Source: the human T2T-CHM13v2.0 reference genome, Homo sapiens
Strand: one strand, 5' to 3'
DNA length: 64,000 bases
Assembly (NCBI RefSeq): GCF_009914755.1
Contig: NC_060935.1
Shown here: positions 20,461-64,000 of the stretch, piece after piece
Layout of the letters: the number at the start of each line of letters is the position of its first letter
Numbering within the stretch: position 1 is the first letter of the stretch
The notes under the pieces: model-generated
Databases searched by the model: none
Told to the model about the DNA's origin: nothing
The model's input: the letters and a program-made list of their open reading frames with translations, nothing else
Program-made: the position numbers and the translations under genes

Positions 20461-21379
20461 TATTATGATCAATTTTTAAAAAGAAGCATATGAGTTATAT
20501 ATCAAATGAAGTCATTTTCAAACTGGTTTTATTTCAGGAAGACTATCTCAATATCTATAAAAGTATTTAATGCACTAATGGATTATATTAATAAAAATCA
20601 GGGTCATTCATTACTTTATTCAATAAATATTTATTGAGCATCTACCATGTGTCAGGCAATATTTTGGGTGCTAGGGACACAACAGTGAATAAAAGAAGAA
20701 AAGAAATCCCTGTCATCATAGAGCTTACAATCAGTCAACCAGTAATAAAAATAAGTAAATTATATAATATAGAAAATGATATATATTATGTATAAAAATA
20801 AATGGGGAAGGAGACAGGAAGAGTCAAGGAAAGGGTAGAGGGTATAGTTTTAAGTAGGGTGGTCAGGGGAGGACTCACTAAGAAGGTAACTTTTGAGCAA
20901 AGACTTGAAGAAGGTGAGGGAGAAAGCCACGAGAAAGCCAGGAGTAGAGTATTCCAGGTAGGTTGAAATGTCAGTGCAGTCACGCTAGGCTCAGGAATAG
21001 CAGAAGTCAGTTTGGCTGGAGGATAATGGAGATGAGGAAATAAGGTTAAAGACAAAATGGGGACCACATCATAGGAACTGGTAGGTCATAATGAGAACTT
21101 GGCTTTTTCTACTAAGTGACATAGAAAGTCATTGAATGGTTTTGGGGGGAGGAGCCAAGATGGCCGAATAGGAACAGCTGTGGTCTACAGCTCCCAGCGT
21201 CAGCGAAGCAGAAGACGGGTGATTTCTGCATTTCCATCTGAGGGACCGGGTTCATCTCACTAGGGAGTGCCAGACAGTGGGCGCGAGTCAGTGGGTGTGC
21301 GCACCGTGCGTGAGCCGAAGCAGGGCGAGGCATTGCCTCACCTGGGAAGTGCAAGGGGTCAGGGAGTTTCCTTTCCGAG

Positions 21380-21595
21380 TCAAAGAAAGGGGTGATGGTC
21401 ACACCTGCAAAATCGGGTCACTCCCACCCGAATATTGCGCTTTTCGGACCGGCTTAAAAAACTGCGCACCATGAGATTATTTCCCGCACCTGGCTCAGAA
21501 GGTCCTATGCCCACGGAGTCTCGCTGATTGCTAGCACAGCAGTCTGAGATCAAACTGCAAGACGGCAGCGAGGCTGGGGGAGGGGCGCCCGCCAT
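21380..21595 (-). CDS. L1 antisense ORF0 (71 aa, open) of L1-A
   Basis: MAGAPPPASLPSCSLISDCCASNQRDSV...HPFL matches the primate L1 ORF0 pattern. Confidence 0.8.
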   Translation of the reverse strand: MAGAPPPASLPSCSLISDCCASNQRDSVGIGPSEPGAGNNLMVRSFLSRSEKRNIRVGVTRFCRCDHHPFL

Positions 21596-22050
21596 TTCCC
21601 AGGCTTGCTTAGGTAAACAAAGCAGCCAGGAAGCTCCAACTGGGTGGAGCCCACCACAGCTCAAGGAGGCCAGCCTGCCTCTGTAGGCTCCACCTCTGGG
21701 GGCAGGGCACAGACAAACAAAAAGACAGCAGTATCCTCTGCAGACTTAAATGTCCCTGTCTGACAGCTTTGAAGAGAGCAGTGGTTCTCCCAGCACGCAG
21801 CTGGAGATCTGAGAACGGGCAGACTGCCTCCTCAAGTGGGTCCCTGACCCCTGACCCCCAAGCAGCCTAACTGGGAGGCACCCCCCAGCAGGGGCACACT
21901 GACACCTCACACGGCAGGGTATTCCAACAGACCTGCAGCTGAGGGTCCTGTCTGTTAGAAGGAAAACTAACAAACAGAAAGGACATCCACACCAAAAACC
22001 CATCTGTACATCACCATCATCAAAGACCAAAAGTAGATAAAACCACAAAG

Positions 22051-60091: not shown

Positions 60092-63000
60092 ATGACAGGA
60101 TCAAATTCACACATAACAATATTAACCTTAAATGTAAATGGGCTAAATGGTCCAGTTAAAAGACACAGACTGGCAAATTGGATAAAGAGTCAAGACCCAT
60201 CAGTGTGCTGTATTCAGGAAACCCATCTCACATGCAGTGACACACATAGGCTCAAAATAAAGGGATGGAGGAAGATCTACCAAGCAAATGGAAAGCAAAA
60301 AAAGGCAGAGGCTGCAATCCTAGTCTCTGATAAAACAGACTTTAAGCCAACAAAGATCAAAAGAGACAAAGGAGGCCATTAGATAATGGTAAAGGGATCA
60401 ATTCAACAAGAAGAGCTAACTATCCTAAATATATATGCACCCAATACAGGAGCACCCAGATTCATAAAGCAAGTCCTTAGAGACCTACAAAGAGACTTAG
60501 ACTCCCATACAATAATATTGGGAGACTTTAACACCCCACTGTCAACATTAGACAGATCAACAAGACAGAAAGTTAACAAGGATATCCAGGAATTGAACTC
60601 AGCTCTGCACCAAGCAGACCTAATAGACATCTACAGAACTCTCCACCCCAAATCAACAGAATATACATTCTTTTCAGCACCGCACCACACCTATTCCAAA
60701 ACTGACCACATAGTTGGAAGTAAAGCACTCCTCAGCAAATGTAAAAAACAGAAATTATAACAAACTGTCTCTCAGACCACAGTGCAACCAAACTAGAACT
60801 CAGGATTAAGAAACTCACTCAAAACTGCTCAACTACATGGAAACTGAACAACCTGCTCCTGAATGACTACTGGGTACATAACAAAACGAAGGCAGAAATA
60901 AAGATGTTCTTTGAAACCAATGAGAACAAAGACACAACATACCAGAATCTCTGGGACACATTCAAAGCAATGTGTAGAGGGAAATTTATAGCACTAGATG
61001 CCCACAAGAGGAAGCAGAAAAGATCTAAAATTGACACCCTAACATCACAATTAAAAGAACTAGAGAAGCAACAGCAAAAACACTCAAAAGCTAGCAGAAG
61101 GCAAGAAATAACTAAGATCAGAGCAAAACTGAAGGAAATAGAGACACAAAAAACCCTTCAAAAATCAATGAATCCAGGAGCTGGTTTTTTGAAAACATCA
61201 ACAAAATTGATAGACCGCTAGCAAGACTAATAAAGAAGAAAAGAGAGAAGAATCAAATAGATGCAATAAAAAATGATAAAGGAGATATCACCACCAATCC
61301 CACAGAAATACAAACTACCATCAGAGAATACTGTAAACACCTCTATGCAAATAAACTAGAAAATCTAGAAGAAATGGATAAATTTCTCAACACACCCTCC
61401 CAAGACTAAACCAGGAAGAAGTTGAATCTCTGAATAGACCAATAACAGACTCTAAAATTGAGGCAATAATTAATACCTTACCAACCAAAAAAAGTCCAGG
61501 ACCAGATGGATTCACAGCCGAATTCTACCAGAGGTACAAGGAGGAACTGGTACCATTCCTTCTGAAACTATTCCAATCAATAGAAAAAGAGGGAATCCTC
61601 CCTAACTCATTTTATGAGGCCAGCAACATCCTGATACCAAAGCCTGACAGAGACACAACAAAAAAAGAGAATTTTAGACCAATATCCCTGATGAACATTG
61701 ATGCAAAAATCCTCAATAAAATACTGGCAAACCAAATCCAGCAGCACATCAGAAAGCTTTTCCACCGTGATCAAGTGGGCTTCATCCCTGGGATGCAAGG
61801 CTGGTTCAACATATGCAAATCAATAAAAGTAATCCAGCATATAAACAGAACCAACGACTAAAACCACATGTTTATCTCAATACATGCAGAAAAGGCCTTT
61901 GACAAAATTCAACACTTCATGCTAAAAACTCTCAATAAATTAGGTATTAATGGGACATATCTCAAAATAACAAGAGCTATCTATGACAAACCCACAGCCA
62001 ATATCACTGAATGGGCAAAAACTGGAAGCATTCCCTTTGAAAACGGGCACAAGACAGGGATGCCCTCTCTCACCACTCCTATTCAACATACTGTTGGAAG
62101 TCCTGGCCAGGGCAATCAGGCAGGAGAAGGAAATAAAGGGTATTCAATTAGGAAAAGAGGTAGTCAAAACGTCCCTGTTTGCAGATGACATGATTGTATA
62201 TCTAGAAAACCCCATCTTCTCAGCCCAAAATCTCCTTAAGCTGATAAGCAACTTCAGCAAAGTCTCAGGATACAAAATCAATGTGCAAAAATCACAAGCA
62301 TTCTTATACACCAATAAGAGACAAACAGAGAGCCAAATCATGAGTGAACTCCCATTCTTCACAATTGCTTCAAAGAGAATAAAATACCTAGGAATCCAAC
62401 TTACAAGGGATGTGAAGGACCTCTTCAAGGAGGACTACAAACCACTGCTCAATGAAATAAAAGAGGATAAAAACAAATGGAAGAACATTCCATGCTCATG
62501 GGTAGGAAGAATCTTTATCGTGAAAATGGCCATACTGCCCAAGGTAATTTACAGATTCAATGCCATCCCCATCAAGCTACCAATGCCTTTCTTCACAGAA
62601 TTGGAAAAAACTACTTTCAAGTTCATATGGAACCAAAAATGAGCCCGCATTGCCAAGTCAATCCTAAGCCAAAAGAACAAAGCTGGAGGCATCATGCTAC
62701 CTGACTTCAAATTATACTACAAGGCTACAGTAACCAAAACAGCATGGTACTGGTACCAAAACAGAGATATACACCAATGGAACAGAACAGAGCCCTCAGA
62801 AATAATGCCACATATCTACAACTATCTGATCTTTGACAAACCTGACAAAAACAAGAAATGGGGAAAGGATTCCCTATTTAATAAATGGTGCTGGGAAAAC
62901 TGGCTAGCCATATGTAGAAAGCTGAAACTGGATCCCTTCCTTACATCTTATACAAAAACTAATTCAAGATGGATTAAAGACTTAAATGTTAGACCTAAAA

Positions 63001-63899
63001 CCATAAAAACCCTAGAATAAAACCTAGGCATTACCATTCAGGACATAGGCATGGGCAAGGACTTCATGTCTAAAAATGGCAACAAAAGCCAAAATTGACA
63101 AATGGGATCTAATTAAACTAAAGAGCTTCTGCACAGCAAAAGAAACTACGATCACAGTGAGCAGGCAACCTACAGAATGGGAGAAAATTTTTGCAATCTA
63201 CTCCTCTGACAAAGGGCTAATATCCAGAATCTACAATGAACTCAAACAAATTTACAAGAAAAAAACAAACAACCCCATCAACAATGGGCGAAGGATATGA
63301 ACAGACACTTCTCGAAAGAAGACATTTATGCAGCCAAAACACACATGAAAAAATGCTCATCATCACTGGCCATCAGAGAAATGCAAATCAAAACCACAAT
63401 GAGGTACCATCTCACACCAGTTAGAATGGTGACCATTAAAAAGTCAGGAAACAACAGGTGCTGGAAAGGATATGGAGATATAGGAACACTTTTACACTGT
63501 TGGTAGGACTGTAAACTAGTTCAACCATTGTGGAAGACAGTGTGGCGATTCCTCAGGGATCTAGAACTATAAATACCATTTATCCCAGCCATCTCATTAC
63601 TGGGTATATACCCAAAGGATTATAAATCATGCTGCTATAAAGACACATGCACACGTATGTTTATTGCGACACTATTCACAATAGCAAAGACTTGGAACCA
63701 ACCCAAATGTCCAACAATGATAGACTGGATTAAGAAAATGTGGCACATATACACCATGGAATACTATGCAGCCATAAAAAAGGGTGAGTTCATGTCCTTT
63801 GTAGGGACATGGATGAAGATGGAAACCATCATTCTCAGCAAACTGTCGCAAGGACAAAAAACCAAACACTGCATATTCTCACTCATAGGTGGGAATTGA
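60092..63899 (+). pseudogene. L1-C ORF2 with many stops and frameshifts
   Basis: Fragmented ORFs from MTGSNSH... to ...SLIGGN. Confidence 0.93.
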
Positions 63900-64000
63900 A
63901 CAGTGAGAACACACAGACACAGGAAGGGGAACATCACACACCGGGGCCTGTTGTGGGGAGGGGGGAGGGATAGCATTAGGAGATATACCTAATGTAAATG

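What the first reader, a model, noticed from the sequence alone, without database searches (positions are those of the whole stretch)
21144..64000. Alternating +/-/+ L1 triad with orientation-specific exchange through a central hub
Seen: B shares alleles with both inverted partners, in interleaved intervals. I found no non-CpG private allele shared by the direct-repeat pair A and C at the sites I inspected (by eye, not exhaustively). Inference: fold-back or intrachromatid pairing of inverted L1s can write mosaic sequence into resident L1s. That could spread or repair lesions and blur subfamily dating. A and C are also the most distant pair, so distance confounds the orientation effect.
Basis: inference. 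Interest (0 to 1): 0.75.

Follow-up and report, generated by a model that had tools for sequence, protein, structure and literature searches.

The report
Neighbouring L1 copies swapped short patches
Three separately inserted L1 retrotransposons lie head-to-head on human chromosome 11; most of their shared bases are ordinary family resemblance, but the middle copy also carries a few short patches of otherwise very rare bases shared with each neighbour, best explained by local gene conversion, a known process.

Summary
The +/-/+ triad is real. A (21144-27207, +) and B (45007-51032, -) are young full-length L1s, each with its own target-site duplication. C (57986->64000, +) is older.

In a full three-way alignment A=C≠B occurs at 59 sites, 41 of them non-CpG, against 74 B=C≠A sites. 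These are mostly private mutations of B and of A. A run test on the three sequences finds no B-C or A-C tract.

I polarised the alleles with 29 other young L1 copies, 8 relatives of C and targeted searches of the same genome. A thin real layer remains:
- B and C share 6 alleles (5 events) within 460 bp. All are rare in both subfamilies (expected by chance 0.08).
- A and B share 8-9 alleles absent from the panel. Four of them lie in two stretches of perfect A=B identity, 349 and 247 bp.
- A and C share only generic old-subfamily alleles.

Short, patchy non-allelic gene conversion is the best reading (about 0.65). Orientation specificity cannot be tested at one locus where the direct pair is also the most distant. 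A fourth L1, about 166 kb upstream, shares some of the same rare alleles, which is unexplained.

The parts
21144..27207 (+). L1 copy A: full length, young subfamily, with a (TAAA)n/A tail. ORF1 and ORF2 are both interrupted.
   Evidence: It is 95.1-97.8% identical to 29 other young copies.
21123..21143 (+). 5' target-site duplication of A. The other copy is at 27208-27228.
   Evidence: The same 21-base string flanks A on both sides. This marks an independent insertion with no net inversion since.
45007..51032 (-). L1 copy B: full length, young subfamily. ORF1 is open (338 aa) and ORF2 is interrupted.
   Evidence: Its best relatives elsewhere in the genome are 98% identical.
44992..45006 (-). 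3'-side target-site duplication of B. The other copy is at 51033-51047.
   Evidence: The same 15-base string lies on both sides.
57986..64000 (+). L1 copy C: an older subfamily with a different 5'UTR type. Its ORFs are heavily interrupted and the window end cuts off its 3' end.
   Evidence: Its best relatives elsewhere are 90-94% identical.
46514..46968 (-). The patch in B that carries C's rare alleles (alignment columns 4197, 4253, 4354, 4550, 4551, 4654).
   Evidence: The alleles occur in 0 of 29 young copies. In 8 relatives of C they occur in 0 of 8, except 4253T in 1 of 8. Among scored candidates C is the best genome match of the 126-base and 141-base sub-tracts.
62161..62618 (+). The matching patch in C.
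   Evidence: B is the best non-self match of 62100-62680 among 40 scored of 2058 candidates.
21598..21946 (+). A 349-bp 5'UTR stretch of A identical to B 50229-50577. It holds the A/B alleles at columns 530 and 592.
   Evidence: About 9 differences were expected and 0 were seen. B is the only 100% match of 40 scored; the next has about 3 mismatches.
25774..26020 (+). A 247-bp ORF2 stretch of A identical to B 46155-46401. It holds the A/B alleles at columns 4831 and 4883.
   Evidence: For the 86-base query 25820-25905, only B is 100% among 40 scored of 1364 candidates.
24427..25120 (+). Three shorter A=B identity spans: 24427-24540, 24775-24836 and 25062-25120. They match B 47632-47745, 47339-47400 and 47055-47113 and hold the A/B alleles at columns 3471, 3781, 3793 and 4108.
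23513..23517 (+). A micro-patch in A with four changes in five bases. Two of them equal the old-subfamily state that C also has.
   Evidence: C's 68-base stretch here is exact in 23 other places, so C cannot be named as the donor.
34101..34815 (+). A young L1 3' fragment lying between A and B, used as an in-window control.
   Evidence: It has 22 rare alleles, 21 of them private. The one shared allele (column 5833) is a widespread variant.

Best explanation
A, B and C are three independent L1 insertions: two young and one older. Nearly all of their three-way allele sharing is subfamily difference plus each copy's own mutations.

On top of that, short stretches were copied between the resident copies after insertion. 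This is non-allelic (interlocus) gene conversion between homologous repeats on the same chromosome. A break or gap in one L1 is repaired using a nearby L1 as template, leaving tracts of tens to a few hundred bases, some of them patchy.

Shown:
- Independent insertion of A and B.
- Sharing of alleles rare in both subfamilies between B and C, confined to 460 bp.
- A-B exclusive alleles sitting in stretches of perfect A=B identity.
- Conflict between the A-B alleles and A's sibling by descent.

Inferred:
- The mechanism.
- The C-to-B direction. B also carries the old-type allele at column 4351. C, being older, had more time to gather five private changes.
- The timing. Zero differences over 596 bp suggests the two long A-B tracts are at most a few million years old.

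Orientation plays no demonstrated role.
For: 1. Independent insertions. Distinct intact target-site duplications flank A and B.

2. B-C coincidence. In the 891 columns covered by both reference sets (29 young copies and 8 relatives of C), B has 12 rare alleles and C has 18. Six coincide in site and base (5 events). The chance expectation is 0.08 (Poisson P about 3e-8). All six are non-CpG transversions.

3. Genome searches.
- C's 581-base tract has B as its best non-self hit (961 bits, next 957; 40 scored of 2058 candidates).
- B's 126-base piece matches C with 1 mismatch and all others with at least 2.
- B's 141-base piece matches C with 2 mismatches and all others with at least 3.
- Of the 20 fetched 126-base hits, 13 have 4253T, 7 have 4354G and 0 have both. 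Of the 16 fetched 141-base hits, 1 has the TT.
- Of the 8 fetched copies with 4197T, none has the other alleles.

4. Leave-one-out control. B has 5 C-like alleles, all within 460 columns. Close panel copies L002-L013 have 0-4, scattered.

5. A-B doubletons. Among 465 pairs of young copies, A-B has 8 doubleton alleles. Only L028-L029 (12) and A-L008 (7) come near, and the other 462 pairs have at most 4. The A-L008 and A-B sites interleave, which no tree without recombination can explain.

6. A=B identity runs of 349 and 247 bp. Under a rate-heterogeneous simulation P is 0.022 and 0.026, and 0.0024 jointly. Four of the 9 exclusive alleles lie inside these runs (P 0.012).

7. Window scan (120 columns, step 20). 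A is B's unique best match in 28 windows. Any single panel copy manages at most 5. C is best in 5 windows, all between columns 4240 and 4540.

8. Scale. The literature gives a mean tract of 250 bp and 2.5e-7 per bp per generation for duplicates under 5% diverged (10.1101/135152, abstract and passages). My inference is that this predicts roughly a tenth of a 6-kb pair converted over about 10 million years. The A=B spans around the exclusive alleles sum to at most 839 bp, or 14%.
Against: 1. Patchiness. Between the shared B-C alleles, the sites that distinguish the subfamilies (columns 4321, 4489, 4687) were not exchanged. A single continuous tract is excluded. One needs either several micro-tracts (maximum spans 28-115 bp) or a heteroduplex repaired site by site.

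2. Each allele exists singly elsewhere in the genome. 4197T occurs in at least 8 copies, 4253T in at least 13, 4354G in at least 7 and 4883G in at least 3. Only the combinations are exclusive.

3. 'Exclusive' means among scored candidates. The genome tool scores only 26-40 of 71-33,927 candidates per query. The 29-copy panel was picked by that tool with A as the query and is not random. B itself was not among the 30 candidates scored for A.

4. Sibling pairs by descent exist in this family: A-L008 (94 Mb apart) and L028-L029 (different chromosomes). So A-B could in part be shared descent.

5. The three-sequence run tests are not significant for B-C or A-C.

6. Copy D, 166-200 kb away, shares 530A, the TT at 4550-4551 and 4654C. 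That is far for a strongly distance-limited process.
Confidence: 0.65

Rival explanations
1. No exchange after insertion. A, B (and D) descend from one rare source lineage that already carried the shared alleles. That lineage had itself become mosaic with old-type sequence before B was copied. The match with C is coincidence or parallel mutation.
For: Sibling pairs by descent are seen in the same panel: A-L008 with 7 doubletons and L028-L029 with 12. D shares 530A with A and B, and shares 1050C, 5560A, the TT and 4654C with B. Each allele occurs singly elsewhere.
Against: The B-C coincidence is 5 events against 0.08 expected, and the partner is the nearest L1, 7 kb away. No unlinked copy with the combinations appeared in any targeted search. 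The A-B, A-L008 and B-D allele sets are mutually incompatible on any tree. A=B identity runs are not expected from shared descent. A lineage whose only known members lie within 210 kb would itself need explaining.
Confidence: 0.17
2. Orientation-specific exchange. Inverted L1s pair by fold-back within a chromatid and exchange sequence, while direct pairs do not, so B acts as a hub because it is inverted to both neighbours.
For: The two pairs with copy-specific sharing, A-B and B-C, are the inverted ones. A-C share only alleles that are generic to the old subfamily or widespread (column 5833).
Against: Orientation is fully confounded with distance (7.0 and 17.8 kb against 30.8 kb). For A-C it is also confounded with 93% identity. 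There is one pair per class. A does carry an old-type micro-patch. D is in the same orientation as C and holds a clean contiguous C-like tract (columns 4550-4687). The passages I read report dependence on distance and identity and do not use the word 'orientation' (PMC6598467 and PMC8230782; 10.1101/135152).
Confidence: 0.1
3. Artefact. The shared bases are consensus or polishing errors between nearby similar repeats in the assembly, or they are alignment artefacts.
For: Nothing specific. The possibility could not be tested because no reads are on hand.
Against: The copies differ by 2.4-7%, which is easy for long reads to tell apart. The shared sites lie in ungapped, unambiguous alignment. Neighbouring diagnostic sites stay distinct, which cross-mapping of reads would not produce.
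Confidence: 0.03

Closest known systems
Non-allelic gene conversion between neighbouring Alu elements. Aleshin & Zhi 2010, seen only as cited in PMC6598467 and PMC8230782; I read passages of those two.
   Same: Independent retrotransposon insertions close together on a chromosome share non-diagnostic mutations. The effect falls with distance and rises with identity. Old elements can donate to young ones.
   Different: Here the elements are 6-kb L1s, not 300-bp Alus. The spacings (7 and 18 kb, possibly about 200 kb) are at or beyond the roughly 10-kb range quoted for Alus. This is a single locus, not a genome-wide statistic.
Interlocus gene conversion in segmental and gene duplicates. Harpak et al., 10.1101/135152, abstract and passages; Vollger et al. 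2023, PMC10172114, abstract and passages.
   Same: Short tracts (mean 250 bp), a rate about ten times the point-mutation rate for pairs under 5% diverged, and slowing with divergence. An excess of transversions is reported in duplicated DNA.
   Different: Those paralogues arose by duplication. These arose by separate retrotransposition. B-C are about 7% diverged, near or past the point where conversion is thought to stop. The B-C pattern is more broken up than a 250-bp tract.
[quoted passage not shown] Tremblay, Jasin & Chartrand 2000, seen only as cited in PMC1920257, which mentions tracts as small as 13 bp.
   Same: It gives an experimental precedent that L1 copies serve as repair templates for one another and that tracts can be very short.
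   Different: That work used mouse cells with an induced break and donors across the genome. This is an evolutionary footprint with apparently local donors.
Arm-to-arm conversion in large palindromes. bioRxiv 10.1101/800185, seen in a search listing and abstract only.
   Same: Inverted repeats on one chromatid that exchange sequence.
   Different: Palindrome arms are over 10 kb and over 99% identical and are kept homogeneous. These L1s are 93-97.6% identical and are only lightly touched.

Membership tests
LINE-1 (L1) retrotransposon insertion | A 5'UTR-ORF1-ORF2-3'UTR body of about 6 kb, with ORF1p and reverse-transcriptase domains | tested here: met
   In B, ORF1 (338 aa) matches Transposase_22, Tnp_22_dsRBD and Tnp_22_trimer, and the ORF2 fragment matches RVT_1. 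A and C align to B along their whole length.
LINE-1 (L1) retrotransposon insertion | An A-rich 3' tail and flanking target-site duplications, marking an independent insertion | tested here: met
   Met for A (21 bp) and B (15 bp), and for D. Not testable for C, whose 3' end lies beyond the window.
Non-allelic (interlocus) gene conversion | The paralogues share derived alleles that are absent from each copy's own lineage | tested here: met
   B-C: 6 sites, present in 0 of 29 young copies, and in 0 of 8 relatives of C except 4253T in 1 of 8. A-B: 8-9 sites present in 0 of 29.
Non-allelic (interlocus) gene conversion | The shared alleles lie in contiguous tracts where the two copies are identical | tested here: inconclusive
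   Met for two A-B runs of 349 and 247 bp (joint P 0.0024) and for D's C-like tract. Not met for B-C, where unexchanged diagnostic sites (4321, 4489, 4687) lie between the shared alleles.
Non-allelic (interlocus) gene conversion | Phylogenetic incongruence along the sequence | tested here: met
   The A-L008 and A-B exclusive sites interleave. The best-match partner changes along B: A, then C, then A.
Non-allelic (interlocus) gene conversion | The pre-conversion state is seen at the orthologous locus in an outgroup or another haplotype | not testable with these tools
   No ape or other human assemblies are on hand.
Orientation-dependent (inverted-repeat) exchange | More exchange in inverted than in direct pairs at matched distance and identity | not testable with these tools
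   There is one pair per class and it is confounded with distance.
Inversion by recombination between inverted L1s | Target-site duplications swapped between the two repeats | tested here: not met
   Each element still has its own matching pair, so there is no net inversion in this haplotype.

The most novel reading that the evidence does not exclude
L1 copies across a ~210-kb neighbourhood (A, B, C and D at chr11:100,295,024-100,301,075) form a local exchange network. Point-like patches move between copies in either orientation and over distances far beyond the ~10 kb described for Alus.

The patches carry mainly transversions: 20 of 30 shared rare alleles, against 68 of 146 private ones. That would fit long heteroduplexes in which transition mismatches are restored and poorly recognised mismatches survive. 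ORF2 columns 3471-4883 of B would be a hot zone, holding 12 of B's 15 alleles shared with A or C.

If this is general, a measurable share of 'private' L1 mutations is second-hand, and L1 ages and source-lineage trees are blurred regionally.
Probability: 0.2. Interest if true: 0.65.

Novelty: new member of a known kind. Interest (0 to 1): 0.4.

Why it matters
L1 ages, subfamily assignment and source-element trees all assume that a copy's differences from its relatives arose in place.

At this locus about a third of B's rare alleles (15 of 47) also occur in a neighbouring copy. If that is typical for clustered L1s, divergence-based dating and 'private mutation' counts are biased in L1-rich regions.

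The locus also offers a concrete, datable test case. The two long A=B tracts carry no differences at all, so they may post-date the human-chimpanzee split and could even vary among people. As a mechanism it is not new: interlocus gene conversion among repeats is well described.

Tried and rejected
- I first read A's 2503/2506 patch as chance within a multi-base change. C's state there is the common old-subfamily state (23 other exact places), so it may be a real old-type patch. It cannot be tied to C.
- Column 5833 (A=C) is dropped as evidence. It is also present in two in-window fragments and in L019.
- The eight copies with 4197T were tested as possible siblings of B. None of the 8 carries the other alleles.
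- I considered whether the common end points of genome hits (query positions 5518 of A; 4368, 3205 and 3621 of C) marked mosaic junctions. The alignments show nothing unusual there except a 3-base insertion in C. I take them as features of the search tool.
- A recombination-hotspot 13-mer (recalled motif) gave 4 matches against 0.83 expected. Three lie in the G-rich 3'UTR tract of A, B and C and none in the exchanged stretches.
- B as daughter of D was rejected: 53-60 private alleles in D against 30-32 in B do not fit a parent-daughter pair.
- Two papers were not held: PMC2950799 and PMC85044.
- Five literature searches found no study of exchange between neighbouring human L1s by distance or orientation. 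[quoted passage not shown] Subscription journals are mostly outside the library, so this is weak evidence of absence.
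Full report
**What is there**

Self-comparison of the window shows three ~6-kb L1 elements.
- A is at 21144-27207 on the + strand.
- B is at 45007-51032 on the - strand.
- C runs from 57986 on the + strand to the window end, which cuts off its 3' end.

A and B are 97.2% identical over 6052 bases. Each is about 93% identical to C over ~5140 bases, and their first ~780 bases match C at only ~84%, so C has a different 5'UTR type.

A is flanked by a 21-base target-site duplication (21123-21143 and 27208-27228). B is flanked by a different 15-base one (44992-45006 and 51033-51047). 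A and B are therefore separate insertions. The matched pairs also show there has been no net inversion between them.

Pfam finds the three L1 ORF1p domains in B's open 338-aa ORF1 and RVT_1 in its ORF2 fragment. ORF2 is interrupted in B. Both ORFs are interrupted in A, and C is heavily interrupted.

The spacers are 17.8 kb (A-B), 7.0 kb (B-C) and 30.8 kb (A-C).

In the same genome, B's best relatives are 98% identical, A's are 97% and C's best are 93-94%. So A and B are young and C is clearly older. I did not run a repeat classifier and give no subfamily names.

A MAFFT alignment of the three has 6059 columns over the shared body, 5382 identical and 189 with gaps. The variable columns split as follows.

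| Pattern | Sites | Non-CpG |
|---|---|---|
| A=B≠C | 345 | 269 |
| B=C≠A | 74 | 59 |
| A=C≠B | 59 | 41 |
| all three different | 10 | 6 |

In a three-sequence alignment these patterns simply mark which copy is the odd one out. I checked this against 29 other young L1 copies from the same genome. They were the loci returned (30 candidates scored out of 20,492) and were aligned.
- At 39 of the 74 B=C≠A sites the A allele is in none of the 29, and at 16 more it is rare.
- At 23 of the 59 A=C≠B sites the B allele is in none, and at 12 more it is rare.

These sites are mostly A's and B's own mutations. A permutation test for runs of informative sites gives no signal for B=C (longest run 4, p 0.19) or A=C (longest run 4, p 0.085). 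The by-eye evidence therefore does not show exchange.

**What remains after polarising: B and C**

Counting only alleles seen in at most 1 of the 29 outside copies, B has 47 rare alleles: 32 private, 9 shared with A and 6 shared with C. A has 70: 57 private, 9 shared with B and 4 shared with C.

The six B-C alleles are at alignment columns 4197, 4253, 4354, 4550, 4551 and 4654 (B 46968-46514, C 62161-62618). All are non-CpG transversions within 460 bp.

I fetched this stretch from the eight closest relatives of C. The alleles are absent there too, in 0 of 8, except 4253T in 1 of 8. They are therefore rare in both subfamilies.

In the 891 columns covered by both reference sets, B has 12 rare alleles and C has 18, and 6 coincide in site and base (5 events). 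The chance expectation is 0.08 (P about 3e-8).

Searches of the whole genome agree.
- C's 581-base stretch has B as its best non-self match (961 bits, next 957; 40 scored of 2058 candidates).
- B's 126-base piece matches C with 1 mismatch and everything else with at least 2.
- B's 141-base piece matches C with 2 mismatches and everything else with at least 3.

Each allele does occur singly elsewhere.
- Of 20 fetched 126-base hits, 13 have 4253T, 7 have 4354G and none has both.
- Of 16 fetched 141-base hits, one has the TT at 4550-4551.
- Eight fetched copies have 4197T and none of the other alleles.

No young copy scored with B's 581-base tract comes closer than about 9 mismatches.

In a leave-one-out control, the close panel copies L002-L013 carry 0-4 C-like alleles each, scattered along the element. 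B carries 5, all inside the 460 columns.

**The pattern is patchy**

Between the shared alleles lie sites that distinguish the two subfamilies: 4321 (young A, old G in 7 of 8 relatives), 4489 (G, against T in 7 of 8) and 4687 (C, against T in 6 of 8). At these sites B and C each keep their own state.

A single continuous tract in either direction is therefore excluded. Either there were several micro-tracts (the spans of B=C identity around the shared alleles are 28-115 bp), or one heteroduplex was repaired site by site.

I favour C as the donor for two reasons. B also has the old-type T at column 4351 (5 of 29 in the panel, 8 of 8 in C's relatives). And C, being older, had more time to gather five private changes in 460 bp. 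This direction is an inference.

**A and B**

Among all 465 pairs of the 31 young copies, A-B share 8 doubleton alleles, all non-CpG. Only L028-L029 (12) and A-L008 (7) are comparable, and the other 462 pairs have at most 4.

A-L008 looks like a sibling pair by descent; the two are 94 Mb apart. Its sites (321, 2049, 3754, 3764, 4327, 6159, 6163) interleave with the A-B sites (530, 592, 3471, 3781, 3793, 4108, 4831, 4883). No tree without recombination fits both sets.

The two longest stretches of perfect A=B identity each contain two of the exclusive alleles.
- 349 bp: A 21598-21946 = B 50577-50229.
- 247 bp: A 25774-26020 = B 46401-46155.

I ran a simulation that places the 156 A-B differences according to local variability in the panel.
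- Runs this long have P 0.022 and 0.026, and 0.0024 jointly.
- Four or more of the 9 exclusive alleles falling in the two longest runs has P 0.012.
- About 9.1 and 5.8 differences were expected in the two runs, and none was seen.

Genome searches agree.
- For the 349-base stretch, B is the only 100% match of 40 scored (2553 candidates) and the next best has about 3 mismatches.
- None of the 7 alignable best hits carries 530A or 592T.
- For an 86-base stretch with 4831T and 4883G, only B is 100%. The three 99% hits carry 4883G alone.

In a 120-column sliding comparison, A is B's unique best match in 28 windows. Any one panel copy is best in at most 5, and C in 5 (columns 4240-4540).

Along B the rare alleles shared with a neighbour read A (259-592), A (3471-4108), C (4197-4654), A (4831-4883).

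**A and C**

A's alleles shared with C are at columns 2503, 2506, 2695 and 5833.
- 2503 and 2506 are the ordinary old-subfamily state. C's 68-base stretch there is exact in 23 other places. In A they sit inside a four-changes-in-five-bases cluster.
- 5833 is a widespread variant, also present in two other in-window fragments and in L019.
- 2695 has one other carrier in the panel.

So A may hold a tiny old-type patch, but nothing ties it to C. A young 715-bp L1 fragment between A and B (34101-34815) has 22 rare alleles, 21 of them private, and shows no exclusive sharing.

**Orientation**

The two pairs with copy-specific sharing are the inverted ones. They are also the two nearest pairs, and A-C is both the farthest pair and only 93% identical.

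The passages I read report dependence on distance and identity: Alu exchange mostly within ~10 kb (PMC6598467 and PMC8230782), and non-allelic conversion slowing as copies diverge (10.1101/135152). 'Orientation' does not occur in the main text of those three papers.

One locus cannot separate orientation from distance. I could not run the genome-wide matched comparison. The genome is too large to be laid in the script box, and the own-genome searches were exhausted.

**An unexpected fourth party**

A full-length young L1 at chr11:100,295,024-100,301,075 ('D') came up in two unrelated searches. It is on the + strand, has its own target-site duplication, and lies about 166 kb upstream of A. It is 97.0% identical to B and 93.1% to C.

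D holds a clean, contiguous C-like tract: TT at 4550-4551, 4622C, 4654C and 4687T, bounded by young-type sites at 4506 and 4731. It also has:
- 530A, otherwise seen only in A and B;
- 1050C and 5560A, otherwise seen only in B;
- 3186C, otherwise seen only in A.

As a control I used the 29 non-local panel copies and counted alleles absent from all the other panel copies. Those shared with B alone total 6, at most 1 per copy. Those shared with A+B total 0, and with B+C total 0. D has 2, 1 and 3.

D was found through some of these alleles, so part of this is ascertainment. Other nearby chr11 copies (at 99,788,329, 100,422,712 and 100,598,848) also appear among the 40 hits each. A 2-Mb neighbourhood should contribute about 0.05 hits per search by my arithmetic.

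This suggests either exchange over much longer distances than described for Alus, or a local family by descent. I cannot decide between them.

**Mechanism and scale**

The best reading is ordinary non-allelic gene conversion: repair of a lesion in one L1 using a nearby L1 on the same chromosome as template.

With the published mean tract (250 bp) and rate (2.5e-7 per bp per generation for pairs under 5% diverged; 10.1101/135152, abstract), roughly a tenth of a young 6-kb pair would be converted in about 10 million years (my inference). The A=B spans around the exclusive alleles sum to at most 839 bp, or 14%.

Shared rare alleles among A, B, C and D are 20 transversions to 10 transitions. Private ones are 68 to 78. 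That is the opposite of what parallel mutation at hypermutable sites would give. The difference is borderline and I do not build on it.

L1 copies repairing one another has experimental precedent (Tremblay et al. 2000, seen only as cited in PMC1920257). 'L1 gene conversion' was discussed by 1991 (a title seen as a reference in PMC5640379).

**Verdict**

- The triad is real.
- A stricter analysis does support a light layer of post-insertion exchange linking B with both neighbours.
- Orientation specificity is unsupported and untestable here.
- This is a new example of a known process, with one open oddity: the regional sharing that involves D.

**Limits**

- The panel is small and was chosen by the search tool.
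- Genome searches score only 26-40 candidates each, so 'only in A and B' means among those scored.
- No outgroup species, other haplotypes or reads were available.

Noticed in passing
L095 (chr11:100294900-100301300 of the same genome; about 166 kb upstream of A): A full-length young L1 ('D'), + strand, with its own target-site duplication. It holds a contiguous C-like tract (columns 4550-4687) and several alleles otherwise seen only in A and/or B (530A, 1050C, 5560A, 3186C).
   Followed up: partly
Hit lists: chr11:99,788,329; 100,299,031; 100,422,712; 100,598,848; 102,746,709: L1 copies within about 2 Mb of the window are over-represented among the 40 best hits for the rare-allele stretches. 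About 0.05 per search would be expected for a 2-Mb neighbourhood. One of them (L062) carries C's 4354G together with 4321G.
   Followed up: partly
L028 (chr13:41,646,497) and L029 (chr14:24,563,111): These two panel copies on different chromosomes share 12 doubleton alleles spread along the element, the most of any of the 465 pairs. They are probably siblings from one source or part of a duplicated segment.
   Followed up: no
window 33798-35879: A composite L1 patch. A young 3' fragment (34101-34815, +, about 96-97% identical to A) lies among older inverted L1 pieces (33800-34039, 34824-35016, 35015-35879; 87-90% identical to A). This looks like a nested insertion.
   Followed up: partly
window 1-905: An L1 3' end (371-905, +) is joined to an inverted upstream ORF2 piece (1-383, -) with a 13-base overlap. 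This is the layout expected of a 5'-inverted insertion. The window start cuts it off.
   Followed up: no
window 23513-23517: Four substitutions within five bases of A against 29 of 29 panel copies: a clustered multi-base change.
   Followed up: partly
window 27150-27207 and L095 6130-6200: A and D both end in long (TAAA)n-type tails, while B has a short plain A tail. This may hint at related sources for A and D.
   Followed up: no
window 49108-50124 (-): B keeps an uninterrupted 338-aa ORF1 with all three ORF1p domains, although its ORF2 is interrupted.
   Followed up: yes
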